Source: Octopus vulgaris
Lineage: Eukaryota
Assembly: GCA_951406725.2 (NCBI GenBank)
Contig: OX597816.1
Span: 128,216,001-128,280,000, forward strand
Direction of reading: 5' to 3'
Length of the DNA stretch: 64,000 bases
This document shows, one piece after another, positions 330-64,000 of this stretch (position 1 is its first letter; each line of letters opens with the position of its first letter). The notes below the pieces were generated by a model. That model was given only the letters and a program-made list of their open reading frames with translations. It searched no databases and had not been told where the DNA came from. The position numbers were made by a program, and so were the translations under genes.

Positions 330-1043
330 ATATCTTTTCCTTTCGAACAGCAGTTTTCAACACAATTTCTAGTTAACTAAACACTTTTAAACTTCGTATA
401 CTGGTAGAATGTGTCAAAATAAAACATTTTTTTCTCTTGGCTTTCTTGAGAAAATTGTAATTTGTAAGTTTAATTTTTCGAATTTTAATCAATCAATCGC
501 CTCAATTGAGCTAAAATCATTTGCTGCCTCTAAAACCGAGACAACATCCTGTCACTAACCCTAACCCTAAATTTTAGCCTTTCGTTTTTTTTTCTTAATT
601 GTTAAATTAATTTAATTGTTACGCGTGTCTAAAATTCGTTTTGTTTTTTGTTTTGAGATATACGTGTATTGTTTAAACTATTTTCCATTGCTTTAGAAAA
701 AAAAACCCGAAAGCAATGGAAAATAATTTAAACAATTAACAAACAAAATAATTCTATAATTTTATACACACGCTTTCTGTACGTAAACATTCCGTACGTA
801 AACATAAGTGACAGGATGTTGTCTCAGTTTTAGACGCAGCAAATGATTTTAGCTCAATAGAGGCGATTGATTGGTTAAAATTCGAAAAATTAAACTTCGT
901 TAAACTTACAAATTACAATTTTCTCAAGAAAGCCAAGAGAAAAAAATGTTTTATTTTGACACATTCTACCAGTATACGAAGTTTAAAAGTGTTTAGTTAA
1001 CTAGAAATTGTGTTGAAAACTGCCGTTCAAAAGGAAAAGATCC
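330..1043. mobile_element. Fold-back non-autonomous DNA transposon with ~225-235 bp inverted arms
   Basis: 332-556 is the near-perfect reverse complement of 807-1041. There is an inner hairpin at about 669-737 and a candidate 9-bp TSD GGAAAAAAA (321-329 / 1044-1052). Confidence 0.8.
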
Positions 1044-2033: not shown

Positions 2034-2051
2034 TTTGGCAGAACTATTTTG
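2034..2051. repeat. Left target-site duplication of the Tx1 element
   Basis: TTTGGCAGAACTATTTTG, identical to 7319-7336. Confidence 0.95.
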
Positions 2052-2308
2052 TATTTCTTTATTATGATTATACAATCGTTACATAGAAGGACAAATACAA
2101 TACATACATGTAAAAAACAGTTAAGAGGTTCGATTTAAAAATTTTTCATAACATTTAGATTATTCATTATAAAAATCGTCTGTAAATTGTCCTTTACGTG
2201 ACTAATAAAATATTGTAACATTTACATAAACTTTCGATCTTACCGAAGTTATAAACCCCGGCAATTTATGAGGCCCCGCAGCTTTTGTTTTCTCTCCTCC
2301 CTCCATAG

Positions 2309-4321
2309 TTAAGCTGGGTTTCTGACGCCCACCTTTTTTTCCACTTCCTTCCATCTTTTCTCATACACACCCCGTGATAAGATCCTCTTTTCCAGCCCCA
2401 TTTTGCTCTTCAGATGATATCTGAAGTAAGTGAGCAAGCCGGGGCCCGAGACAAAGGATCCTATCGCGACTCCTTCCATTCTTGTTCGCCACATACACTC
2501 TTTTGCTACTGCAACCGTGCAGTGAAAACATGCCTCACCTTCCTTCGAGAGTCCAGTTGGCGGTATCATCTTGATCATAGACTCAGCCGACAGCTGTACT
2601 CGTCCCAGATGCGATAACACGTGTTCTGCGTAACTTATCAAGTCGGACAACTTCCGACAGTGTACAAATGCGTGCTGGACGGTTTCATCGTCCAACTCGC
2701 ACCTTGGACACGTCGGTGGCACCGGAATTCCGTGCCGCGATAACTTCTCGCGAACAGGTAAAGCATTCCTATAGCACTGCCAGGCCAGGGATCTTTGGAA
2801 ATTATCCAAATACCCCGTCCTGAAAGTCTTTTTAAACAGGTTGATAAGCTGGTCTTCGTCAAACCCCAGAGCCCCTCCAAGGACGTCGTCGTTTTTTACC
2901 TCTACCAGCCTTCTATAAAATACCGAGGTGGTATTTCCGCAGCCGGCCTTGCCCGCCTTGTGGATCAGCGTGAGTGCCTGTCGGCACTCCTTTTGCCATG
3001 AAGTCAGTTTCCATCTTCTGATGAGACCGGGTTTAAAATTCACTAAGGAGGCCGGACTCGGGAAAAATCCCCCTGCCAGCGGACTCCACACCTTATCACC
3101 CTCCAGGTGGTGCCAGAGATGCTTCAGCCTCAACGCATGTCTGCGCATCATCAACCAAGGCATTCCTAACCCACCCTTCAACGGTTCCTGGCAGCAAACG
3201 GAGCGCCTCACAAGTGGCTTTCCTCCCTTCCACAAAAAGCGGAAAAGGATTCGTTCCAACTTGCTAAGCCATGAGTCGGGGCAAGGGACAACGGTCAGGC
3301 GGTAAGTGATTACAGATGCAATGAACATCTGCACCACCTCCGCCCTTCCTTTCAAGGACAGAAACCTTCCGGACCAGGTCCGTACTATGGCCTCTACCTT
3401 GCTCGTCACTTCACTCCAGTTCCTCTCCGTTTGGGAGTCTGGCCCAAACCAAACTCCTAGCAACTTAACAGGGCCATCCGTCCAGTGTCCCACGACACTG
3501 GACGATATCGTCTTGCTCCTCCAGGTGCCGAGGTGCAAGCCAACCGACTTGTCCTTGTTAACCTTTGCTCCTGCCACCGCCTCGTATCCTCTGATAGCCT
3601 CCTCCACACAAGGTAGCTGGGCCTCATTGGACACGATGAGGGTGACGTCATCCGCATAAGCAGTAACCGTCCTCCCACCTCCGATCTCATCCGAGTTGCT
3701 TCCCAGTCTCTCCAACCTTCGCAGCAATGGCTCAAGAGCCAATACGTACAAAAGTGGTGACAAGGGGCACCCTTGACGAACTGAACATCCGATCGAAAAC
3801 GGTTCCGTTAGGTAACCGTTTATCTGGACGGTGGACTTGATGCCGCTATACATAGCGGAGATCCACCCGCGAAATTCAGGGCCCAGTCCAGCCGCTTCGA
3901 GGGCCGCCGCCAGGTACCCATGGTCTACCCTATCGAACGCTTTACTTTGGTCTAAATGGACCATCACCCCTCCCTTGCCGGTTAATTTACCCACCCTATC
4001 TAAGGTGTAGCGTATAAGGTGAAGGTTGTCCTGGATCGACCTGCCTGGAATTGCACATGTCTGTGTTCTCCCTACAAGTTTCTCCACGGCAACCGTCAAC
4101 CTTTTTGCCAACACCTTGGCCAGAATCTTTAACTCTACATTAAGTAGAGTTATGGGCCTGTAGTTGCTCGGGTCTTTCTGGATTAGCGTCACCACTCCCC
4201 GGCTTACAGAACTGGGAATCCTCCCGTTCTGCTGCCAGTTCGTGTAGACGCCTGCCAATATTCCCCCGAACAAGTCCGGCATACTTTGGTAAAACTCGTA
4301 GGGCAGACCATCCAACCCCGG
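2309..4321 (-). pseudogene. ORF2 C-terminal part: reverse transcriptase and CCHC zinc finger, frameshifted from the endonuclease part
   Basis: Motifs (PGL)DGLPYEFY, NYRPITLLN, LDQSKAFDRVDH, RQGCPLSPLLY, AYADD, KLLGVWF, GGLG and CPRC..DETVQHAFVHC. The listed 'M' at 4315 is a TTG inside PGLDG. Confidence 0.92.
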
Positions 4322-5666
4322 CGCATCCGGCCAGCATCCCCTCTATCTCCGCGGGAGTGATCGCTTCTTCACAGCACTCCACCTCACGCCCCGAGAGCCG
4401 CGGCCCGCCGGCCAGGAAGTCCTTTAAGGCCCTCCCGCGCTCCGGCGCCACACCACCCCCGAACACGCGGGCGAAATGCTGGTGAAGAAACTTTTGCATC
4501 TCCTCCTGTCCATAGATCTTTTGTCCCTGTTCGTCAGTTAAAGACTGGATTGAGGCTTTGTTACCTCTCTGACTCTCCACTCGACGGGCCCATCCGGCAA
4601 CGTTAATACCTTCTCGTTTCCCAGCGCGTAGCTTAGCTCTGACTCTGCAACCTTCGTGTTTGGAGTTAAGGTGACGGTACAATACCGTCCTTGCCGCCAA
4701 CACTCCGGATGCAGAGCCAGCTTCCATTGCCTCGTTTAGATTCTTAACTAACTCGTCCTCTATCCTAGACCTATCTATCCTTAGCTGATTGCTAAATCTG
4801 ATGGACTCTGAACGAATGGCTCTTTTGAGGGAGTGCCACCATCTATTGTTAATGATGGTGCCACACAATGCCCTCTGTACTAACACCTTAATCCGGGTAC
4901 GGAAGTCTTCACAATTCAAAATAGCCTTGTTCAGCTTCCAGTACCCGGGTCCCTGTCTATGACATTTGTCTAATTGCATCCTACACGTCACAAATTTGTG
5001 ATCCGTGTAAGGCACAATGTGAAATTGTGGACAACTAAACGTATCCTTATCTCTTTTCTTAATAAATATCCTATCTAGATACGATCTGTGTGAGCCGTCG
5101 TTGTTACTCCACGTCCACTGTGGAACGCTCGGCTCATCCAGTCGGTAACGGTCCACTAGATCAAAGCTCTCTAGTAGACCCTTGAGGCTAGGGTTCCCCT
5201 TCCTATTGGTTGAGCCAACACTGTCGACCCGCGCTTCAAGGACAGTGTTAAAGTCCCCTACTAGGATTACCGTTTTCGACGTCGCTAAAAAGGGCTCCAG
5301 GTTCCGAAAGAAACCCGTCTGTTTACTCTCGTTCGGAGCGTAGACAGCTACCAACCTGAAGGACTGTTTACTTACGTGGGTCACATCCAGAACAACCAGC
5401 CTGCCTTCTGGGTCCAGAAAGACAGTACTTACCTGCAAGTCCAAGCTCTTCCTGATAAGGACTGCCACGCCTCTGCCTCTTCCTCGGCTAGGAGAAATAA
5501 ATTTCTCGAACCCATTTAGAAGAGGCGAGAACGCTTGGGCCTCGTTCATCTTGGACTCGGTTGCAATAGTTATGTCTACTCCGTGTGTCGTGAGGTCGTT
5601 CAGGAAACAAATTTGTTTCCGTTTCGACCCCATTCCACGTACATTCACACAACCCAGCTTAGCCAT
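4322..5666 (-). pseudogene. ORF2 N-terminal part: apurinic-like endonuclease and linker
   Basis: MAKLGCVNVRG, ATE, GVAVL, VYAPN, GDFN, SYLDRIF, TDH and GPGYWKLN (typical of L1/Tx1). Likely ATG at 5666, with an alternative in-frame ATG at 5714 overlapping the end of ORF1. Confidence 0.92.
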
Positions 5667-5692
5667 TGTTGGTGAGAGAAAAAGAGATGAAC

Positions 5693-7123
5693 TTACGATT
5701 GGGAAAGGGAGCATGACAGTTTTAATCTGCCCGCTTCCCCTTCTTCCTCCCTTGTGGTCGTGGCTGCAGGGCTCTTAACCGGCGTTGCCACCGGGCTCTG
5801 GGTAGGTGTGGTTGCCGGGGTTATGACGAGTTTGCCCTCCAGAACTTCTTTTGTCACATCTCTAATCAGTCTATTCTTTAGATGTTCTTGAAGAACTTCC
5901 TCCTTCCACTCGTCTTCCTTTATTTTCGCGAAGCGAGTGGTTGCTTTTATGTCTGTGGCCTTGCTATATAATTTAAATTTTGAAAATTTATAGTATTTAT
6001 ATACCCTTTCATTTTTCTCATCAAAAGCGATGATCTTATTCTTTTTTAAAGACTTTTTCACATCTTGTTTTATGGGGAGGGGCTTGGCGAACTGTTTCCC
6101 AATGAAAACAGTGCCATGGGGGTAGGGCTGGGGGATTTGTTTCATGTGTGTGTCTGCGGTGCTTGCTGGTTTTTTCCTTGTTTGGGGAGGGGAGTCCAGG
6201 GTGTTGTCTTTTTTTCTTTTGTGTGTTACCTGTGTGTAGTCCATGTGTTCGGTACAATCCGTTGCTGTTTCTATACTTGTCGTCGTCTTGTTATCCTTTT
6301 CTGCCTTCTCCCCTTCAGTGATTGAAGCACTTTGAGGAGGGGCTTCATTGGTTTTCTTCTTTTTTATGCAGTTCGAGCAGACGTGACCCTTCTCTTCACA
6401 TTTAAAACATCTCGGTCTGCGTCCCTCTACTGATACTCTCATTGATGTTCCATCTTCGTTGAATATCCTATCGGGTAGGTTCTCTAATATCTTGTTTTCC
6501 GCTTGGACGAGGAGCTCCAGCGTCTGTCCCTTCCAGCGTACCTCCTCTTTCCTTCTCATCTGCAGAATCGAGATTTCCCGCTCTATATTATGCAGGACCG
6601 CTGCTGCTACCCACATTATATCGTATCCTCTCGGTATGTCCTCTACCAGCAGTTTCGCTGTTCTTTTTCCCATGTATGAGGGTAGCAGCATGATCTCATC
6701 ATTTTTCAGGGTCAACGATGATACCTCTCTTGCTATCTCAGCCGAGTCAAAATGTACCTCAACAGTAGCGCTACGAGCGCCTCGGACGACATGGCGAATT
6801 TTGTCCCACACCGGGGACAAGCACTTTTCAACCAATTCGTTTCTAACGTCCATAATTTTCTTTTCTTTGTAGCTATACACTTTATATATGACTGTTTTCT
6901 CCTTTATTTCTTGTACCTTCGCCTGCGGCGGCACAAGTTTGGCTTCGTTTCCTTCCATTTTTACCAGGTTCCTGAATTCGAACAGTTGTTCGATCTTGAA
7001 TTCAACGTCCATCATAGTTCCGCCTACCGCGGCCGAAAAGGACTGTTTGGTTACTTCCGTTTCCTTTAATTCACTTGTTCCCATCGCGGGGAAGTCATTC
7101 TTCGACGCCAAGTCGAAATCCAT
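5693..7123 (-). CDS. Tx1 ORF1 gag-like nucleic-acid-binding protein
   Basis: Intact ORF of about 476 aa from the first ATG (7123, MDFDLASK). It has the zinc knuckle CFKCEEKGHVCSNC, a basic C-terminal half and a T/P-rich tail, and lies directly upstream of ORF2. Confidence 0.88.
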   Translation of the reverse strand: MDFDLASKNDFPAMGTSELKETEVTKQSFSAAVGGTMMDVEFKIEQLFEFRNLVKMEGNEAKLVPPQAKVQEIKEKTVIYKVYSYKEKKIMDVRNELVEKCLSPVWDKIRHVVRGARSATVEVHFDSAEIAREVSSLTLKNDEIMLLPSYMGKRTAKLLVEDIPRGYDIMWVAAAVLHNIEREISILQMRRKEEVRWKGQTLELLVQAENKILENLPDRIFNEDGTSMRVSVEGRRPRCFKCEEKGHVCSNCIKKKKTNEAPPQSASITEGEKAEKDNKTTTSIETATDCTEHMDYTQVTHKRKKDNTLDSPPQTRKKPASTADTHMKQIPQPYPHGTVFIGKQFAKPLPIKQDVKKSLKKNKIIAFDEKNERVYKYYKFSKFKLYSKATDIKATTRFAKIKEDEWKEEVLQEHLKNRLIRDVTKEVLEGKLVITPATTPTQSPVATPVKSPAATTTREEEGEAGRLKLSCSLSQS

Positions 7124-7318
7124 CCCTAAAGAGTGTTTCAAAAATTACCTCGAAGGTAATAACAATTTTAAATACAGAATTTTCTGCCCCGTAGGGCGAA
7201 AATTACCGTTACACAACGGGCACTGTTCAAATAACAGTTAACACAAACAACGATAAGCAAAAAATCCGAACTCTCTCAACAAAGGCAGCAATCTCTCAAA
7301 ACGCAGATGAAAAAGCAA

Positions 7319-7336
7319 TTTGGCAGAACTATTTTG
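7319..7336. repeat. Right target-site duplication of the Tx1 element
   Basis: TTTGGCAGAACTATTTTG, identical to 2034-2051. Confidence 0.95.
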
Positions 7337-18740: not shown

Positions 18741-19205
18741 TTATATGAATAATTATACTAAAGACTTAGAAATAAATTTTGTAGCCTATAGCAAATTTCT
18801 GGGTCTGCCCAAAGGCTCTCCCATCTTCAGCAGAAACATACTTTAGAAATAAATGAAATATTTATATATACTTCCTGTGAGTATATATAAATATTTCATT
18901 TATTTCTATAGTATGTTTCTGTTGAAGATGGCAGAGCCTTTGGGCAGACCCAGAAATTAGCTATAGGCTACAAAATTTATTTCTAAGTCTTTATTATAAT
19001 TATTCATATAAGACGAGAGAGCCTTTGGGCAAACCCAGAAATTAGCTAATATAGAACTATCTATCTTATAAAAAATTTCTATTGGCTTGTTGCTTCGAAT
19101 TCAACACATGTGTTTGTGACTTCTTTGAATGGTGAGATGATTTAGCATCTATTTCTCAGCATATAGGCTAGAAAATTTATTTCTAAGCCCTTATTATAAT
19201 TATAT
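18741..19205. mobile_element. Fold-back (arms ~130 bp, 18741-19011) plus a third direct partial copy; hammerhead-bearing, Penelope-like arrangement
   Basis: 18741-18872 is the reverse complement of about 18880-19011. The segments 19012-19050 and 19163-19205 repeat the right arm. The arms contain CTGAAGA-TGGG...CCCA-GAAA. Confidence 0.8.
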
Positions 19206-21911: not shown

Positions 21912-22800
21912 CAAAGGTGGGCTGAAAGGTTCCACAAAGCTGAAGGAGTGATGCTAGAGCTGTGAAAGCTTGCATGCATTAATTTCAAATCTTCTTATTA
22001 ATAAATGCATTGTTTCTTTCCAGGCAAACTTGCATCTGACTGTCCGAAGAACATTTCAGAAGTAACTAGAGGGACTCCTCTTGAAAATGGACAAAATTCT
22101 TGGTTGGGTGTCTCTATGATCAAGTGCTATAAGTCTTAAATTAAATACGTAAATAAAAGAAGACAATGTAGACAAGTGACTTTCCTATATGTAAAAGCAA
22201 AGAAATCTTACAAGCTACTATATATGACATGATATACCTTATATTACCTAGTAGTCCAAGGATTATGTAAATTACAGTCTATATGTTATATCATCAATGG
22301 ACATTTTGTTTGTAAAGTCAATGTAAACAAACATCCATACAAAAGCCCATTTGTTTGATATACTTCCTCATGGATACTCAGCATGTTTATTCCCAACTTC
22401 ACACTTAAACGTCCTTAATTTTACTGATCCAGTAATTAAATGTTTAGAAAGAAGTTTTCTAATCAATGTTACAACTAATCAATAAACACTTTGCCACCAG
22501 CCAGGTTCAAAATTTCCCCAAGACACCTGATGAAGGCTGGAGGGTATATCAGCCGAAACGTTGTGTAAACAACAAACAAGATGAGGACAAATATCTGTCA
22601 AATGTAAATAATATATCTATTGTTGATGACTTTTTTAACCACAAGATGAAAGCTTCTTCATCAATGGGATCCAAGAACTGCAACTTGGATAGAAAGAAGT
22701 ATGTGGATTGCAAGGAGGAGTATGTTGTAAAATAAACCACATTTAGTCTCATTCCATGAGAATATTTTGGTCAGCCTATGAATTTTTCAGCTGACCCTCA
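21912..22800 (+). mobile_element. Deleted Tc1/mariner element, interrupted by another insertion
   Basis: TA|CAAAGGTGGGCTGAAAGGTTC ... GAATTTTTCAGCTGACCCTCA|TA form imperfect TIRs with TA flanks. 22655-22735 encodes a mariner-like C-terminus (FFINGIQEL.../KKYVDCKEEYVVK*). Confidence 0.7.
22523..22566 (+). ncRNA. Minimal type I hammerhead motif in a repeat also found at 43445-43796 and 50420-50570
   Basis: ACAC-CTGATGA-A-GGCTG gagggtatat CAGCC-GAAA-CG-TT-GTGT, with palindrome AACGTT. Confidence 0.72.
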
Positions 22801-26989: not shown

Positions 26990-28155
26990 AATATTGGTTC
27001 CAAATTTTGTCACAAGGCCAGAAAATTCAGGTGGAGAGTGTTCAACTGGTACTTATTTTATCAACACTAAAAGGATGAAAGACAAAGTCAACATTGACAG
27101 AATTTGAATTTACAAATGTAAAGACAGACAAAATGCCACTAAAGATTTTGCCTGGTGTGCTGACAATTCTGCCAGCTCACTGCCTCAAAAGATGTAGATA
27201 TTCTTCCTTGGGTGGAAACATCTATCCTTAAATCCTTAAAAGTGTTTTAGCCCAAAGGCCGCGGCCATGCTGGGGAACCACCACTGATCTGAGTAATATT
27301 GTTTTCAAATTTTGGCACAAAGCCAGCAATTTTGGGGTGGGGTGGAGTAAGTTAATTAAATTGGTCCCATTACTCAGCTGGTACTCATTTTATTGACCCC
27401 CAAAAGGATGAAAGGCAGAGTCAAGCCCAGCAGAATTTGAATTCAGAACATAAAGGTAGATGAAAATGCCACTAAGAATTTTGCCTAACATTTTATAAGC
27501 AATTTTGGAGATGACACTGATTTACAGTATCAGTCTGTTGTTGTAAGTTTTATTATTTTTGGCATAAAAAGATATAACTCAATACAGCATATTTAAAAAC
27601 ATGGCTGTTAAGATTTTTTTAGATAGATTATTAAACAGAAATGTAGAAATTTTCCTTTTTACTTATCTTTTTGTATGAGGCAAAAATAATGAATTCAAAA
27701 TTTGGCACAACACCAGCAATTTTAAGGGGAGGGGTAAGTCAATTACATCATTCCTAGTACTTGAATAGTACTTTATTTTAATGATCCCAAAAGACAACAA
27801 GCAAAGCTCAGCTCAGTGGAATGTGCACTTGGAGGTAAGGAATTGGATAGAAATGTTGCAAATCATTTTGTCCAATAAGCAAATAATTCTTATTTCTTTA
27901 TTACCCACAAGGGACTAAACATAGAGGGGACAAATAAGGACAGACAAAGGGATTAAGTCGATTACATCGACCCCAGTGCGTAACTGGTACTTAATTTATC
28001 GACCCCGAAAGGATGAAAGGCAAAGTTGACCTCGGCGGAATTTGAACTCAGAAGGAAACAGCAGACGAAATACCGCTAAGCATTTCACCCGGCATGCTAA
28101 CGTTTCTGCCAGCTCGCCACCTTTAAACAAATAATTCTGCCAGCTCATTGCCTTA
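26990..28155 (-). mobile_element. Cluster of four co-oriented family C SINEs (body GCCTTTCATCCTTT.GGGGTCGATAAA...AAGTACCAG, Meta-domain-like)
   Basis: Repeated GGTACTTA...AAAGGATGAAAGGCAAAGT...GAATTTGAA...CTGCCAGCTC motifs at about 27050, 27380, 27770 and 27985. Confidence 0.8.
27891..28127 (-). mobile_element. Young family C SINE nested in an older copy, 11-bp TSD
   Basis: TSD CAAATAATTCT at 27880-27890 and 28128-28138. The 3' end is TAATAAAGAAATA and CpGs are retained. Confidence 0.9.
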
Positions 28156-36300: not shown

Positions 36301-37065
36301 TGATAAGATTTCTAGGAACAAGTTGTTTCTGTTACCTAAATTGACTTACGATGGGATTGTAATGGGGAAAAAATACAGTAAGATAAGCAAGGAAGAACTT
36401 CAGGGAGTTTTGAAGTTCATCTTATTTTTAACAAATGATATTAAGGCCAGCAAGTTCATATATGTCTTATATCTGGGCTGATGCACTTTTACCACACACA
36501 TACAAGAATACATTCTCATCTTCATCAAAGAGCAAGCCACCCACTTGATAAGTAATACTTTTATCCTTTTTAAGTATTCAGGCCTCCATTGTATTATACT
36601 TCCACCCAACTATCTTTTCCTCAGTCTTTGATCTTCTCTTATACCACAACTGCAAAAATCTATTTGATATTTTTATTTCTCTTCTTTGCATTAATCTTAC
36701 AATAACTCCTTTCCAGTCATACTTTCCTACATGTACAGTTCTCCATATTTTTTAGTAAGTACCTATCTGCAACTCATTCAATTCAATATTGATATTAACC
36801 ATGTCTAAACCAGACAATTTGTCCTTTGTCAAAGTAGAGGTCAAAGCAGCTGTGAATTTTAACCCTCCTTCCTTGATTGAAAAATTACAAAGTAGAGACA
36901 GTGGTTATAGCAATATCAATTCTGCAACCAGTATTATAGCATATAAAATTTACAACAATTCTTATGTACAAAAAAAAAATGGCAAACTGCAGAAAAAAAT
37001 ATGCATCAATTCTGTAAAACAACAGAAAATAATAATAATATTAATAATGATAATAATAATAAACA

Positions 37066-38138
37066 TATCCTGATGCAGTACCAAGCAGTGGTTCTCATGG
37101 CTTTTGATCTTTACTGATTGAAAGTGTTATCATGTACATTGTTTTATCTTAGTACAAAAGATGGGCTACAGCAAATATTCTGCTCAATACCACAAATTTG
37201 CTTGTCACTTGTTTGACCGTAACCAGTTGAGCATGTCCCTTAGTGGCTGACAATATGAGCAGAAGCCATTGGGGAGCATCATAATCATGTGTTGAGAGGG
37301 ATTCTTTGGGGTTTGAATACTTCACCTCTGGAAACATGTATGTTTCATTCATTACCCTAAACATATTGAGTAGCTGGATGGGCTACTCAATATGAAGAAA
37401 ATTCTAACTGGGCCCCTCCTGCAAGGTCATATACTGTTTATCTTGGTTTGAGATCACCATGTCGTGCACAAGTCGGTGTGATGCATGTGCCTGGTATACC
37501 TTTATCAGATGGGTAGTCATGATGCATATATTGGCCTTCGTATATTTGTACCCCAGTGTCACTCTGATGGCGTGCATTGCTCTCTCACTCAATAATAATA
37601 ATAATAATAAATACCCTGATGCAGTGCCAGGCAGTAACTCGAATTATTTCTCATCTTAACTGATTAGAAGCATTATCATGGATATTGTTTTGTCTTGGTA
37701 TAAAAGATGGGTTGCAGCAAATATTCTGCTCAGTACCACAAATTTGCTTGTCAGTTGTTTGACCATAACCAGTTGAGCATATCGCTTGATGATATATACA
37801 TCTCTGATCATGAGCAGGAGTAGTGGGGAAGCATCATAACTGTGTATTGAAAGGAATTCTTTGGGGTTTCAATAATTCAACTTTGGAAACATAGGTGTTC
37901 ATTATCCTTAAACAAACTTTATTCAGAGACATTTTGTGTTGGATGGGCTACTCAACCTGAAGAAAATTCTAACTGGGCCCCACCTGCAAGGTCATGTGCT
38001 GTTTATCTTGATATAAGATCACCATGACATGCACATATGGTCATGATGCATGTGCCTGGTGTTCCCTTATCAGATGGATGGTCATGATGTATATATTGGG
38101 CTTCTTAGATTTTATCCCAGTGTCACTTTGATGGCATG
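37066..38138 (-). repeat. Two diverged tandem copies of a ~530-bp element, each next to an (AAT)n tract
   Basis: About 37066-37590 and 37611-38138 are collinear (CCTGATGCAGT.CCA.GCAGT ... CCCAGTGTCACT.TGATGGC). Confidence 0.85.
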
Positions 38139-38139
38139 A

Positions 38140-38865
38140 AAAGTGGAAAGGCAAAGTTGACTTTGGCACAGTTTGAACCCAGAATGTAAAGATCTTTAGG
38201 AAATGCTGCTATGCATTTTGCCTGACAAACTAAAACTTTTGCCAGCTTGCCACCTTAATAATGATTTCAAATTCGGGCACAAGGCCAGCAATTTTCGGGT
38301 GGGGCTAAGTCAATTACATCAACCCTAATATTCTACTGGTACTTTATCAATCCCAAAAGATAAAAGGCGAAGTTGACCTCAGTAGAATTTGAACCCAAAA
38401 TGTAAAGACAGATGAAATACCTATTTCTTTACTACCCACAAGGGGCTACACACAGAGAGAACAAAGGGATTAAGTCGATTAAATTAACCCCAGTGCGTAA
38501 CTGGTACTTAATTTATCGACCCTGAAAGGATGAAAGGCAAAGTTGACCTCGGCGGGATTTGAACCCAGAACGTAACAGCAGAAGAAATACGGCAACGCAT
38601 TTCGCCTGGCATGCTAATGTTTCTGCCAGTTCGCCGCCTGATGAAATACCACTAAGCATTTTGCCTGGTAAGTTAACAATTCTGGCAGCTGGCCACATTA
38701 GTAATAAGAATAATTTCTAATTAAGGGGTAAGGTCAGCAATTTTGAGAGGACTAGATTAGTCAATGCTATCAACCCCAGTACCCTAGAACTTGGCTATTA
38801 CTTTATTTTATCAATCCTGAAAAGATGAAAGCTAAAGTTAATCCCAGCAAGGTTAGAACTCAGGA
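38140..38865 (-). mobile_element. Second cluster of co-oriented family C SINEs
   Basis: Four occurrences of the AAAGGC.AAGTT.A...GAA..TGAAC motif. Confidence 0.8.
38422..38639 (-). mobile_element. Young family C SINE nested in an older copy, 11-bp TSD
   Basis: TSD GATGAAATACC at 38411-38421 and 38640-38650. The 3' end is TAGTAAAGAAATA. Confidence 0.9.
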
Positions 38866-41532: not shown

Positions 41533-43444
41533 CTCTAGAACAATCAATGCATGCTTCTTGGTGAAGTGATGGTAAAATAAGTGATGTGAAGTGACTGTGG
41601 CTTACAATTTTCAAAACGAAATGTCTTAAGATTTAATAGAAGTAACACCTCAACATGAGAATCATTTGAAATACTATTTATTACTTTAACTAAGCCTTAT
41701 CTTATATTTTGGTTTTGGCATTTCAATGTTTTCCCAGCAATGTAATAAACTAGTGAAGCACTTTTATCACAGTGCAATATGTATAACATTAAGACAAGCT
41801 AAACATTTAGACCAGTAACTCCCAAATTGTGTGCCATGAGCTGTTTCTAGTTGTGCCTCTAAAATAACAAAATTATTTTTAAAGAATGTGAAAAATACAA
41901 ATAAATTAAAATTCTAAATTTAAAGCTTCGTATTGTATAATGATATAAGTACTTTGTAATTTTCTGTAGTTAAATTATTTATATTTACTGGCTAATTATA
42001 TATAAATAAATACCTTTTTCTAATGCATAAGGGATTGAATATTTACATTAGCTCTGAAATACACTGTGAGTAAAAATGGTTTGAGAACTGTTTGATGTCA
42101 TCATTTCCTTAGAATTATCATTTCTTTGATTTAGACATTACCATTTATTGTCTTCTTTACCATAACTGGTAAAATAAAGGATTTCCTGATCTTTTATCCT
42201 AACAGAATGCATGCAATTAAGCATTTTATTAACTTTTAATAGTGAACTTTCAGTTGGCTTCTAACATAAATAGGAATTTAAATCATAAATTAACGTCTGT
42301 AGAGAGGAAAAAATAAAAAGAATCTATGGAAAAACTGATAGCATAAAAATTCTACAATTCTTTTTAACATTTTTCTTTGTATTTTGGATCCCAAATTCAT
42401 TATTTTGGTTTCAATGTACATTAGCAAAAGTTTAGAAAAAAAAAAGAGAAAAAATTTATGCTGGATTGATCAAGAATTTAGTAGGGATTTATTTGAAGTG
42501 CTATGGGTGGAGTCACAATCAAAATATGCTTCAAAGCTGAAAGCTTGCTAATGGTTAGAGTGTAATATGTTTCCTCTAAAGTATTCGTAAATTAGCAGAA
42601 AATTGTAGGTTTGCATTCTAACAAAGGTAATGAAGAGAGATTATTTTCAGATAATCATGAAATTATTTAAAAGCCTTTCTTACCCAATGTTTTTTTTTAG
42701 CAATTATCTTTTATTGCCCATTTTCTAATTACTACCGCTTCATCCATATAAAGGCTTTCTTGTGTTAAGGAGAATGAAAAAATATATATTGGTATTTTGA
42801 TCATTGTCAGTTACAGAATTTCACCTTACTCACATCATTGACAAGCTGGTATATTCACAAAAGCTCATATAAATTAATATCATTTCAGCCCCATGTTGTA
42901 CAAATATGATAATGAATAAATGATTTTATTCATCATTATATTCTTTTTCTTATTCAATACTAATATTTACAATTAAACTGATCTCATATTATCTTTGTCT
43001 CTAACATCTCAATTCATTAGTTTTTAATACTACTACTAAGGATAAAAATAATAATATCAACATCCTTTAAATTTAGCATTCTCTTATTATTATTTAACTA
43101 ATTCAATGCTCATTGGGGAAAAGGAGTCTTTTCAATTGCTATTTTCAGAAACACTGTCAATTCAAGGGTTATGAACAAATTCTAGATATCTTTAGTCCTC
43201 GTACCATCAAAAGGCACCAAGAGTTTAAGCTGGACAGGTATGACAATAATGGATGTGTCTGAGATGTAAAATTAGCAAAATAGTTGTAAAGTATTCATAT
43301 AAGACTTTACGTTGAATAACTACAACTAAATGTTAGTTTAATCTAGTTAGGAGTCAAGTAAGTCTGTTCCACTAATTATTACTGTACAGTTCTTCTAACC
43401 TTACAAGGATGAACAGTTCTATATTTAAGAGATGAGGAATTATG

Positions 43445-43605
43445 TACATTATTTACATTTGACAGATATTTATCCTCATCTTGTTTGTTGTTAACATAAT
43501 GTTTCAACTGATACACCCTCCAGTCTTCATCAGGTCTCTTGGGGAAATTTCAAACCTGGGTTCTTATTCCTAGGGTATTTTTCAATGTTATTCAATTCCA
43601 GGCAG

Positions 43606-43654
<49 letters not shown>

Positions 43655-43796
43655 CAACATCGAAAAATACCTTAGGAATGAGAACCCAGGTTCGAAATTT
43701 CCCAAGACACCTGATGAAAGTTGGAGGGTATATCAGCCGAAATGTGTTAACAATAAACAAGATGAGGACAAATATCTGTCAAATGTAAATAATGTA
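43445..43796. mobile_element. Inverted pair of a hammerhead-bearing repeat joined through an (AAT)n tract
   Basis: 43445-43590 is the reverse complement of about 43652-43796. Each arm has CTGATGAA...GAAA (43711-43742 plus; about 43502-43533 minus). Confidence 0.85.
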
Positions 43797-44690
43797 AATA
43801 AGGATGAACAGTGTTAATAAAGGCCAGTTTACTCTTTGTTTGCCAGTGACAACATTCAATATAAAATTTTCATCTACTTTTCCGCAAAGAAGGAAGATTA
43901 TGAGAAAAGCCTTCCCTTTTAGCATACTTGACACTTCAATTTCAAAGTAAGACAAAAGAAAATATACAATAAAACTAAAGCTTAACTCCTGATTTACCAG
44001 CATATTTTATGGAAAATTATAGAGTTTCATAATGCAGGTCTGCCTCAGTACTAATAGTTATCCTCCTCATCCTCCTCCCCATCATCATCATCATCGTCAA
44101 CAACAGCAACATCATTTTGTAATGATCACTTTAATGTCACATTGCTATTGACGTGTCCTATTTCCCTTTGTGCATAAAAAAATTTACTTTCATCTCAATG
44201 TGATCAAATTTATTGGTTTCAATGTCATTAATAACATTTGTTGCCATGAATGGAAGAATTAGAAGTGTTCTAAAAGAGAGTGTCATCTGAACAGACCACT
44301 TGATATCAGTTTTATAATGTTACAGCTATAAAACCAAGTTCAACAATTATTTCCAGAAATAAAGAACATGTTTTTTTCATTCACTAGATTCACTCTTATT
44401 TGATCATCACCACTATCATCATCATCAACAACATCATCGTCATCGTCATCATCATCATTTAATGTCCATCTTTCATCGCTGGCTTGGGTTGAGCAGTGTG
44501 ACAGGATCTGATAAACTGCAGGACAGCACTGAGGTTCGAAGATCTGCTTCAGCATGGTTGATACAGTTGGATGCCCTTCCTAACATCAACCACTTTATAG
44601 TGTGTACTGGGTGCACCAAGTACAATGGTTTACTTTTAGAAAAATACTTTTCTGATACAAGTAAAAATGCAAGTTCTAAAATCTCTTTAA

Positions 44691-50419: not shown

Positions 50420-50620
50420 ATACATTATTTATATTATTTACATTTGACGGCTATTTGTCCTCATCTTGTTTGTTGTTAACACATTTCAGCCGATATACCC
50501 TCCAGCCTTCATCGGGTCTCCTGGGGAAATTTCGAACATGAGTTCTTATTCCTAAGGTATTTTTCGACATTAGTCATCGTCTTCTTCTTCTTCTTATTAT
50601 TATTGTTATTCAGGTCACTG
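50420..50620 (-). mobile_element. Further copy of the hammerhead-bearing repeat, core decayed
   Basis: Minus strand reads GAGAC-CCGATGA-A-GGCTG...CGGCT-GAAA-TGTGT. Homologous to 22500-22612. Confidence 0.8.
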
Positions 50621-57465: not shown

Positions 57466-57634
57466 ATATTCTTTTCTACTCTGGGCACAAGGCCTGAAAT
57501 TTTGGGGTAGGAGGCCAGTCGATTAGATCCACCCCAGTACACAACTAGTATTTAATTTATCAACCTTGAAAAGGATGAGAGGCAAAGATGACCTTGACAG
57601 AATTTGAACTCAGAACATAAAGACAGACGAAATA
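57466..57634 (-). mobile_element. 5'-truncated family C SINE with a different tail
   Basis: Family C body, with tail AATTTCAGGCCTTGTGCCCAGAGTAGAAAAGAAT. Confidence 0.75.
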
Positions 57635-63186: not shown

Positions 63187-63452
63187 GAAAATACCTCAAG
63201 TTGCTTCTATCCAACAAGGCCACTTACTTTGACAATAATCCTTACATTAAAACATTACACTACAGAACATTGTCTCTTTACTCAACAAACCTTTGAATCT
63301 CTCACTCTCTAAAGGGACATACTGAGACATTTAGATATATGTTGTAGAGTATTGCATTCTCAAGAAAGGCAACTCTTTTGACCCAGCCAACTATCATCTC
63401 ATTGCTCTCACCTCCAACATCTTCAAGTTAATAGTGACAGACATTAACAATG

Positions 63453-63813
63453 GTGGAGGCACGTGGCTTAGTGGTTAGGGTGTCAGCACCATAATTGTAA
63501 GATTGTGGTTTTGATTCCTGGACCGGGCAAAACACTCCTTTCACATTGCTCCAGTCCACACAGCTGGCAAAAATGAGTAAAAAGGTGGCAAGCTGGCAGA
63601 AACGTTAGCATACCGGGAGAAATGCTTAGCGGTATTTCGTCTGCAGCAACATTCTGAGTTCAAATTCTGTGGAGGTGGACTTTGCCTTTCATCCTTTCGG
63701 GGTCGATAAATAAAGTACCAGTTACGCGCTGGGTCGATATAATCGACTTAATCCATTTGTCTGTCTTTGTTTGTCCTCTCTGTGTGTAGCCCCTTGTGGG
63801 CAGTAAAGAAATA
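63453..63813 (+). mobile_element. Composite (dimeric) SINE: a tRNA-like left monomer fused to a complete family C SINE, single 14-bp TSD
   Basis: TSD AGACATTAACAATG at 63439-63452 and 63814-63827. The left head is GTGGCTTAGTGGTTAGGG...GGTTTTGATTCC and the right monomer starts near 63581. The element ends AGTAAAGAAATA. Confidence 0.88.
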
Positions 63814-64000
63814 AGACATTAACAATGTCATTTTTTATCCCCTTCAATCCCTCCCTCTTTTCATTGAACCAGATCCACTGGATACTTACTTATTTCACTC
63901 AGCATTGGGCTCTTTCCTTAGAGAAGTTTGGGGAAAATAATGTAATTGCTCAAGACATCAGCAGAGCCAGACTGTACTTAGCATACATATCAGAGCTACC

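What the first reader, a model, noticed from the sequence alone, without database searches (positions are those of the whole stretch)
2052..2098. Tx1 LINE and family C SINEs share a poly(A)-less 3' module with a sequence-variable hairpin: candidate stringent LINE-SINE pair
Seen, on the element strand up to the TSD: Tx1 ends TATTTGTCC-TTCTATGT aac GATT-gtat-AATC a TAATAAAGAAATA. The SINE at 27891 ends TATTTGTCCCCTCTATGT ttagt CCC-ttgt-GGG TAATAAAGAAATA. SINEs at 38422 and 63813 end ...CTCTGTGTGTAGC-CCC-ttgt-GGG-(T/C)AGTAAAGAAATA. All stop at the same AAAGAAATA with no poly(A). Two conserved blocks are spaced 15-16 nt apart by a hairpin whose sequence differs but whose pairing is kept. Established: stringent LINEs (L2, CR1, RTE) recognise a 3' stem-loop that their SINEs copy, whereas mammalian L1 uses poly(A). 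Inference: this Tx1 family, or a close relative, is the engine of the currently youngest SINE subfamily and recognises a defined 3' RNA signal. I cannot check whether this pair is already catalogued.
Basis: partly seen in the sequence, partly recalled or inferred. Interest (0 to 1): 0.85.

Follow-up and report, generated by a model that had tools for sequence, protein, structure and literature searches.

The report
Octopus SINE tail from Tx1-like LINE
An octopus-type jumping gene (LINE) and a family of short passenger elements (SINEs) stop at exactly the same tail sequence with no poly(A), so the SINE likely borrows the copying enzyme of this LINE lineage, probably a sister family rather than this one.

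Summary
A full-length L1/Tx1-group LINE (2052-7318, minus strand, 18-bp TSD) and three tRNA-type SINEs end at the same AAAGAAATA, directly on their TSDs, with no poly(A). They share a terminal 12-13 nt block and an upstream block (joint chance roughly 1e-5 or less). Public reads from four runs add support: LINE-family depth starts at 2052-2053 in all four, two other junctions lack poly(A), and the family's majority letters at 2100-2101 extend the match to the SINE. The LINE-versus-SINE 'covarying hairpin' is weak: the spacers share 1-3 of 15 letters, and the LINE hairpin is no better than shuffles. The better-supported hairpin lies elsewhere. Family C and five older sibling SINEs keep one loop (NUUGU) and one spacing to GAAA, with three compensated stem pairs, and this LINE has another loop. 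Three LINE junctions share a nearby GAACTA that the three SINE sites lack. So the tail is homologous, and a sister Tx1-like family is the likelier engine. No such pair turned up in the papers searched; Repbase and Dfam could not be checked. The scan noted an analogous protist case (e1-7200422), not this one.

The parts
2034..2051 (.). 18-bp target-site duplication at the LINE 3' end
   Evidence: identical to 7319-7336
2052..7318 (-). full-length L1/Tx1-group LINE, 5,267 bp
   Evidence: TSD, ORF1, and ORF2 with endonuclease, RT and zf-RVT
2052..2063 (-). terminal block AATAAAGAAATA shared with family C SINEs; defined end, no poly(A)
   Evidence: depth boundary 2052.0-2052.8 in 4 of 4 runs
2064..2079 (-). 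LINE spacer; possible weak hairpin (5 of 6 pairs, loop GUAU) closing just before AAUAAA
   Evidence: not better than shuffles
2081..2108 (-). upstream pyrimidine/UG-rich block shared with the SINE tail (core 2081-2097)
   Evidence: majority letters of other copies at 2100-2101 match SINE 27891
2309..4342 (-). ORF2 3' part: RT and zf-RVT
   Evidence: Pfam PF00078 and PF13966; 56-59% to the closest relatives, one from Argonauta hians
4140..5774 (-). ORF2 5' part: APE-type endonuclease; the frame breaks near 4320-4345
   Evidence: Pfam PF03372; tblastn frame switch
5693..7123 (-). ORF1 with one CCHC knuckle
   Evidence: translation; only homologue found is Octopus sinensis LOC115216432, 50% identical
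7319..7336 (.). 18-bp TSD at the LINE 5' end
27891..28123 (-). family C SINE copy 1; 11-bp TSD; hairpin 27903-27915
   Evidence: A- and B-box-like motifs, no internal T4
38422..38639 (-). family C SINE copy 2 (14-nt deletion in the upstream block); 11-bp TSD; nested in an older sibling SINE; hairpin 38434-38446
63583..63813 (+). family C SINE copy 3; hairpin 63789-63801; its 14-bp TSD brackets a second SINE head from 63454 (dimer)
57483..57495 (-). older sibling SINE tail hairpin, loop CTTGT
38275..38287 (-). older sibling SINE tail hairpin, loop CTTGT
27703..27715 (-). older sibling SINE tail hairpin, loop GTTGT
27313..27325 (-). older sibling SINE tail hairpin, loop TTTGT
27008..27020 (-). 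older sibling SINE tail hairpin, loop CTTGT

Best explanation
The family C SINE and this LINE share a homologous, poly(A)-less 3' end, and the SINE is likely copied by the ORF2 protein of a sister family in the same octopod Tx1-like lineage, which would start reverse transcription at that defined end. Shown: shared blocks, identical end point, TSDs, no A-tail, and a loop-conserved, stem-compensated hairpin in two SINE tail types. Inferred: family C arose when an older SINE (same head and body) swapped its tail for the last ~60 nt of a Tx1-like LINE. Inferred: both RNAs run on past the end (the SINEs have no internal T4, and AAUAAA lies only 6 nt from the end), so ORF2p must find the end by sequence or structure rather than by poly(A). 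Inferred: the NUUGU loop is the specificity mark, as loops are for zebrafish L2 elements, and the window's family has drifted to another loop and perhaps its own target preference.
For: Joint chance of the two blocks roughly 1e-5 or less (2 of 217 sites x about 1e-3). Four of four ends in the window are exact. In public contigs, LINE-family depth begins at 2052.0-2052.8 in 4 of 4 runs; a shared A-tail would be expected to align over the TTTT at 2047-2050 and shift this (my inference about the aligner). The two listed loose ends at 2052 are not A-tails. Out-of-sample check: at 2100 and 2101 nearly all other copies carry the letters that match SINE 27891, e.g. 16,606 of 16,606 and 16,481 of 16,606 depth in X9. 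Family C and its older siblings share head and body and diverge right after CGACTTA, as expected of a tail swap. SINE hairpin: 29 of 32 cells paired, 3 of 4 pairs changed on both sides, TTGT invariant in 8 of 8, best slid control 53%; RNAalifold predicts the same helix. Sister families exist: ORF1 at 50% in Octopus sinensis, ORF2 at 56-59% in four other records. Loop specificity in stringent LINEs: PMC4176376 passages. Stem-variable, loop-conserved L1-clade tails in maize: PMC3472496.
Against: No sister LINE with the CUUGU loop was seen: scans of the metagenome, genome and viral collections gave nothing, and no genome is held. The SINE covariation is one comparison of two lineages, not eight independent ones, and 7 of the 8 rows had matched a pattern that asked for pairing. 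The terminal block contains AAUAAA, which a LINE may keep for mRNA processing alone. SINE TSDs (11, 11, 14) are shorter than the LINE's (18). Only 2 other LINE junctions were visible; 148 loose-end rows and 75 substitution rows were hidden. Blocks may be conserved by recent descent rather than by function. No mobilisation data.
Confidence: 0.55

Rival explanations
1. This very LINE family is the engine of family C. ORF2p reads the two conserved blocks plus any short stem, and the loop sequence does not matter.
For: The terminal 12 nt are identical in LINE and SINE 27891; the stem closes at the same place before AAUAAA in both; the family has many copies with intact ends; the four indel rows listed within 2052-2098 sit at 2073 and 2078, the unpaired spots of the LINE hairpin (placement next to A-runs is ambiguous).
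Against: Spacers share 1-3 of 15 letters, and the SINE loop is kept across two SINE tail types but not in this LINE. GAACTA lies 5-6 nt from 3 of 3 LINE junctions (window) and at 0 of 3 SINE junctions; its frequency at three offsets is 0.0007, though it was picked after the fact. TSD lengths differ.
Confidence: 0.22
2. The family C tail is a mosaic. It kept the functional hairpin of the older SINE, is mobilised by that SINE's unknown partner (possibly not L1/Tx1), and picked up the Tx1-like blocks by recombination.
For: Loop and spacing to GAAA are shared with the older tail. In the hairpin part, family C matches the older tails at 5-9 of 15 letters and the LINE at 1-3 of 15.
Against: It needs LINE-like sequence patched in on both sides of the hairpin. 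Three of four stem pairs differ between the two SINE tails, which fits long separate evolution rather than simple retention. Family C ends at the LINE's exact end, whereas the older tails run on into ATT-rich sequence.
Confidence: 0.12
3. The direction is reversed: the LINE lineage captured a truncated SINE tail as its 3' end, for example as a poly(A) signal, so the match says nothing about the SINE's engine.
For: SINEs insert into other repeats in this window, and the block contains AAUAAA.
Against: A captured copy should keep the spacer about as well as the blocks, yet the spacer shares 1-3 of 15 letters and the terminal block 11-12 of 12. It would not explain why LINE copies end at exactly the SINE's last base without poly(A).
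Confidence: 0.07
4. The similarity is chance or convergence of AT-rich, poly(A)-signal-like ends.
For: The blocks are short and low in complexity; blastn gives only a 13-nt hit (E 0.5-0.6); copy 38422 alone is not significant in the upstream block.
Against: Two independent blocks in order, at matching spacing, anchored at exact ends, plus the out-of-sample extension at 2100-2101.
Confidence: 0.04

Closest known systems
Maize/sorghum ZmSINE2 and ZmSINE3 with LINE1-1_ZM (stringent L1-clade pair; PMC3472496 first third read, PMC3747384 passages and tables)
   Same: L1-clade LINE and tRNA-SINE share about 50 nt of 3' end; hairpin with variable stem, conserved loop and conserved 3' flank.
   Different: Plant rather than animal. 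The hairpins there are strong (-10.8 to -17.7 kcal/mol) and aligned between LINE and SINE. Those SINEs end in (T)n; here the end is a bare AAAGAAATA and the LINE's loop differs from the SINE's.
Chlamydomonas SINEX-3_CR with L1-1_CR (PMC3747384 passage)
   Same: tRNA-SINE with an L1-clade tail.
   Different: Both end in poly(A); green alga.
Crocodilian SINEU with Tx1-Mar (PMC4494074, parts 1-4 of 5 read)
   Same: A SINE assigned to a Tx1-clade LINE in an animal.
   Different: SINEU has a poly(A) tail and an snRNA head, and no LINE shares its 3' end; the pairing rests on a shared target. Here the pairing rests on a shared tail, and a shared target is not seen.
Zebrafish ZfL2-1/ZfL2-2 and eel UnaL2/UnaSINE (PMC4176376 passages)
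   Same: Works like it (inferred): defined 3' tail and a stem-loop whose loop gives family specificity.
   Different: L2 clade; shown by assay; longer stem-loops, and their tails carry repeat units.
Octopus SINEs OK, OR1, OR2 and the 'tRNA-Deu' / 'tRNA-Core' classes (cited)
   Same: Octopod tRNA-type SINE; family C probably falls in the tRNA-Deu class (its body recalls the Deu/Nin/Inv domain; recalled, not tested).
   Different: No sequences were available to compare; no partner LINE is given in the passages seen.

Membership tests
L1/Tx1 group of non-LTR retrotransposons | ORF1 plus ORF2 with APE endonuclease, RT and C-terminal zinc-binding domain; TSD | tested here: met
L1/Tx1 group of non-LTR retrotransposons | RT closer to L1 than to R2-type RT | tested here: met
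   phmmer vs PDB: human L1 ORF2p about 145 bits, R2 proteins 69-82 bits; CR1, L2 and RTE references were not in the comparison
Tx1 clade (as distinct from L1) | RT groups with named Tx1 elements | tested here: inconclusive
   Tree of 46 RT rows (1 of 47 dropped for short overlap): the window sits in a 100/100 clade with Argonauta and unnamed rows; deep forks are open and no row is a verified Tx1 reference. BAC82613 scores 242 bits; that it is a Tx1-group element is recalled.
Tx1 clade (as distinct from L1) | ORF1 with CCHC knuckle | tested here: met
   one C-X2-C-X4-H-X4-C in the translation; no significant Pfam hit; that this marks Tx1 among animal L1-group elements is recalled
Tx1 clade (as distinct from L1) | target preference (many, not all, members; PMC4494074) | tested here: inconclusive
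   GAACTA near 3 of 3 junctions; two outside flanks are 16 of 19 alike; that flank is not in the window
tRNA-derived SINE (SINE2) | short, dispersed, A/B boxes, no internal T4, TSD | tested here: met
   3 copies of 218-233 nt with TSDs; B-box-like in 3 of 3 and A-box-like in 2 of 3 by pattern; no T4 in 3 of 3. ARAGORN finds no tRNA gene.
Deu/Nin/Inv-domain SINE | central conserved domain | not testable with these tools
   no reference alignment could be read; resemblance recalled only
Stringent LINE-SINE pair | shared 3' tail sequence | tested here: met
Stringent LINE-SINE pair | no poly(A); defined 3' end across copies | tested here: met
   4 of 4 ends in the window; 4 of 4 runs and 2 of 2 listed junctions; 148 loose-end rows hidden
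Stringent LINE-SINE pair | stem-loop conserved between LINE and SINE with compensatory changes | tested here: inconclusive
   not shown for this LINE vs the SINE; shown between two SINE tail types
Stringent LINE-SINE pair | shared insertion signature (TSD length, target) | tested here: not met
   TSD 18 vs 11, 11, 14; motif at 3 of 3 LINE vs 0 of 3 SINE junctions. Small numbers, and it bears on this family only.
Stringent LINE-SINE pair | tail needed for mobilisation by the LINE's ORF2p | not testable with these tools
   needs an assay

The most novel reading that the evidence does not exclude
Octopods carry a stringent Tx1-like LINE lineage, the first animal L1/Tx1-group lineage with a SINE that shares its poly(A)-less tail. 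Its ORF2p reads a minimal signal (4-bp stem, NUUGU loop, 6 nt, GAAA) that two successive SINE generations kept while changing stem and flanks, and sister LINE families have since diverged in loop and target.
Probability: 0.4. Interest if true: 0.72.

Novelty: new variant of a known kind. Interest (0 to 1): 0.5.

Why it matters
Ohshima's survey found 3 SINEs with L1-clade tails among 58 pairs, all in plants or algae, and proposed that ancestral L1-clade elements were stringent and later relaxed to poly(A). An animal L1/Tx1-group pair with a bare, defined end would extend that idea to animals. It would also give a very small RNA signal for tests of how an L1-type ORF2p starts without poly(A), with human L1 ORF2p structures at hand for comparison. 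SINEs make up 11.6% of the O. vulgaris genome, and 13 L1-Tx1 families are recently active there, yet the passages read name no partner LINE for them. The kind of system is known, so the surprise is moderate.

Tried and rejected
No own genome is held, so no genome-wide census. Tail-pattern scans of viral and metagenome contigs gave 0 hits; ORF2-profile scans of all three collections gave 0 confirmed loci from 162, 27 and 42 candidates; SINE-body scans of genome and viral contigs gave 0. These collections hold little animal DNA, so the blanks say nothing about the pair. No RNA holder was listed; run X2 is RNA only by guess, so its contig with 101 nt of flank is not used as proof of read-through. 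Rfam: 114 matches, all below gathering score, none at the tails. ARAGORN: 0. MAFFT could not align the LINE spacer with the SINE spacer. Whole-tail folds (49-60 nt) are no better than shuffles, z +0.29 to -0.81. I first took the SINE body for a Meta domain; the BivaMeta and BivaMD alignments in part 1 of 4 of the MetaSINE supplement show nothing like it by eye, and a motif search of that file found no body motif. The outside flank motif is not enriched in the window (one search used a pattern one letter too short and is disregarded). The protein atlas gave only generic RT clusters. Five other long ORFs have no Pfam match, and tblastn shows no second LINE of this kind in the window. For the hairpin alignment, 5 of 8 older body hits were used; left out were one with a decayed tail (hit 38803-38839) and two with no recognisable tail. 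One search stopped at its last comparison, so 9 of 10 old-copy identities were obtained. Literature: nine searches were answered and none showed an octopus SINE-Tx1 tail pair. Repbase, Dfam, SINEBase files, Ohshima and Okada 1994 and subscription journals were not searchable.

Full report
What is there. The finding is the 3' end of a 5,267-bp element on the minus strand, 2052-7318, flanked by an exact 18-bp duplication. It has an ORF1 with one CCHC knuckle and an ORF2 with endonuclease, RT and zf-RVT domains, broken into two frames near 4320-4345. The only ORF1 homologue found is an Octopus sinensis protein at 50%, and the best ORF2 relatives, at 56-59%, include Argonauta hians, so the host is very likely an octopod. 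The RT scores about 145 bits against human L1 ORF2p and 69-82 against R2 proteins. A 46-row tree puts it in a well-supported clade with the Argonauta sequence but does not resolve Tx1 against L1. I call it Tx1-like.

The observation. Three SINE copies (27891-28123, 38422-38639, 63583-63813) and the LINE all end in AAAGAAATA directly on their TSD, with no A-run and no overlap that could blur the junction. AATAAA is followed by GAAATA at 2 of 217 sites in the window, both these elements. The upstream block is matched by 7 and 6 of 20,000 shuffles for two SINE copies; the third has lost 14 nt there and is not significant, at 1,261 of 20,000. Multiplying the two tests gives roughly 1e-5 or less. 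The SINEs have B-box-like motifs in 3 of 3 copies, A-box-like in 2 of 3, and no internal T4.

Other copies of the LINE. No genome is held, so I laid contigs of four public runs from three coded organisms on 1940-2540. Run X1 holds this insertion's junction with no difference over 1940-2072. Depth in X1 rises from 62 to about 4,200 at the element end. Solving the 2045-2065 bin for the boundary gives 2052.3, 2052.8, 2052.7 and 2052.0 in the four runs. A widely shared A-tail should align over the TTTT at 2047-2050 and move that boundary; this is my inference about the aligner. Two loose ends are listed at 2052, and neither is an A-tail; 148 loose-end rows were not shown. At 2100 and 2101, nearly all other copies differ from the window copy, and their letters (CC on the element strand) match SINE 27891 at both places and SINE 63813 at one, extending the shared stretch to about 57 nt. 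That is a modest but out-of-sample confirmation of homology. The window copy differs from nearly all laid copies at about 17 of the 40 listed places, so it is an older copy or a minor subfamily.

The hairpin. Between LINE and SINE the evidence is weak. The LINE's local hairpin is -0.6 kcal/mol with z +0.66. A 4-bp stem appears in 15% of spacer shuffles, and the end-anchored 5-of-6 form in 6.8%. The spacers share 1-3 of 15 letters and do not align. One small point in its favour: the four indel rows listed within 2052-2098 fall at 2073 and 2078, its unpaired spots.

A better-supported hairpin turned up among the SINEs. The window holds older siblings with the same head and body and another tail, which diverges right after CGACTTA. 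Five of eight such hits have a readable tail. All five, like family C, carry a 4-bp stem, a 5-nt loop with TTGT, six bases, then GAAA or a near variant. On the eight ends, 29 of 32 cells pair, 3 of 4 pairs are changed on both sides, 0 of 500 shuffles reach the score, and the best slid control pairs 53%. RNAalifold predicts the same helix. This is one contrast between two lineages, and seven rows had matched a pattern that asked for pairing, so it is suggestive rather than proven. The LINE's loop, GUAU, is not this loop. In zebrafish L2 elements the loop gives specificity and stems can be swapped (PMC4176376, passages).

Insertion signature. GAACTA lies 5-6 nt from the junction in the window's TSD and in both outside flanks, which are also 16 of 19 alike, hinting at a preferred or repeated target. 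None of the three SINE sites has it, and SINE TSDs are 11, 11 and 14 bp against 18. For SINEU, a shared target was the argument for a Tx1 partner (PMC4494074); by the same logic this family is not the best candidate. The numbers are small.

Mechanism. Shown: homologous tails, a common defined end, no poly(A). Inferred: family C arose by tail exchange with a Tx1-like LINE. Because the SINE has no terminator of its own (first T4 at 17-98 nt downstream) and AAUAAA lies only 6 nt from the end, both RNAs likely run past the end, so ORF2p would have to start at a fixed internal position, guided by the terminal block and hairpin. The engine is more likely a sister family with the NUUGU loop (0.55) than this family (0.22), a non-Tx1 partner with a mosaic tail (0.12), reverse capture (0.07) or chance (0.04). 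Homology of the tails alone I put near 0.9. Family C is younger than its siblings in the window (87-90% pairwise against 72-84%); nothing shows that it is the youngest in the genome.

What is known. Ohshima lists 58 SINE-LINE pairs, three with L1-clade tails (maize and Chlamydomonas), and the table shows none in molluscs and none naming Tx1 (PMC3472496, first third of the text; PMC3747384, passages and first part of the tables). SINEU is tied to Tx1-Mar by target only, has poly(A) and shares no LINE tail (parts 1-4 of 5). Bivalve SINE partners are CR1, CR1-Zenon, L2 and Nimb (PMC11481361, passages; PMC4824008, passages). Octopus repeat papers list L1-Tx1, tRNA-Deu and tRNA-Core classes and name no pair in what I saw (PMC13282606, first third and a supplement search; PMC8967140, PMC12988792, PMC5804259, PMC4758252, PMC5786205 and PMC3531059, passages only). 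Nine paper searches found no octopus SINE-Tx1 tail pair. Repbase, Dfam, the SINEBase supplement and Ohshima and Okada 1994 could not be read, and any of them may already hold the pair or the SINE's name.

Verdict. A real shared tail and a credible new variant of a known kind: a stringent-like LINE-SINE pairing in the L1/Tx1 group of an animal. Interest 0.5.

Noticed in passing
window 63439-63827: The 14-bp TSD of family C copy 3 brackets a second SINE head (63454-63582, with an A-box-like motif and a stretch resembling the BivaCORE-SINE2 primer), so the two moved as one dimer or were joined by template switch.
   Followed up: partly
window 27880-28145 and 38257-38699: Two of three family C copies sit inside older SINEs of the same head type.
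   Followed up: partly
window 2037-2051 vs 28128-28142: The LINE's TSD and the target of SINE 27891 look alike (TGGCAGAA-Y-TATTT) but in opposite orientation relative to the elements; chance, or one nuclease cutting either strand.
   Followed up: no
runs X1 and X2, loose ends at 2052: Two other LINE copies have flanks 16 of 19 alike, suggesting insertion into a repeated target or carriage inside a larger repeat; the motif is not in this window.
   Followed up: partly
run X16 record 9 (1940-2050): A contig from organism C follows the left flank and then leaves the reference at the TSD, as an empty site would; the letters were not shown.
   Followed up: no
window 332-1041: MITE-like element: about 225-bp inverted arms, 93% alike, with a short TTAGGG-type run near 556-570.
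   Followed up: no
window 18741-19011: Near-perfect long hairpin: 132-nt arms, 96% complementary, 7-nt loop.
   Followed up: no
window 43440-43801, 22501-22623, 50422-50576: A roughly 150-bp repeat, 85-91% alike, next to (TAA)n runs; present as an inverted pair at 43440-43801.
   Followed up: no
window 37065-38138: Tandem duplication of about 530 bp, 78% alike.
   Followed up: no
window 9337, 10240, 19758, 31494, 39358, 46674, 58158, 61398: Another dispersed repeat family of about 150 bp, roughly 69-84% alike; not classified.
   Followed up: no
P0165: A close ORF2 relative is filed under a Herbaspirillum genome bin on a 1.8-kb contig, probably animal DNA in a bacterial bin.
   Followed up: no
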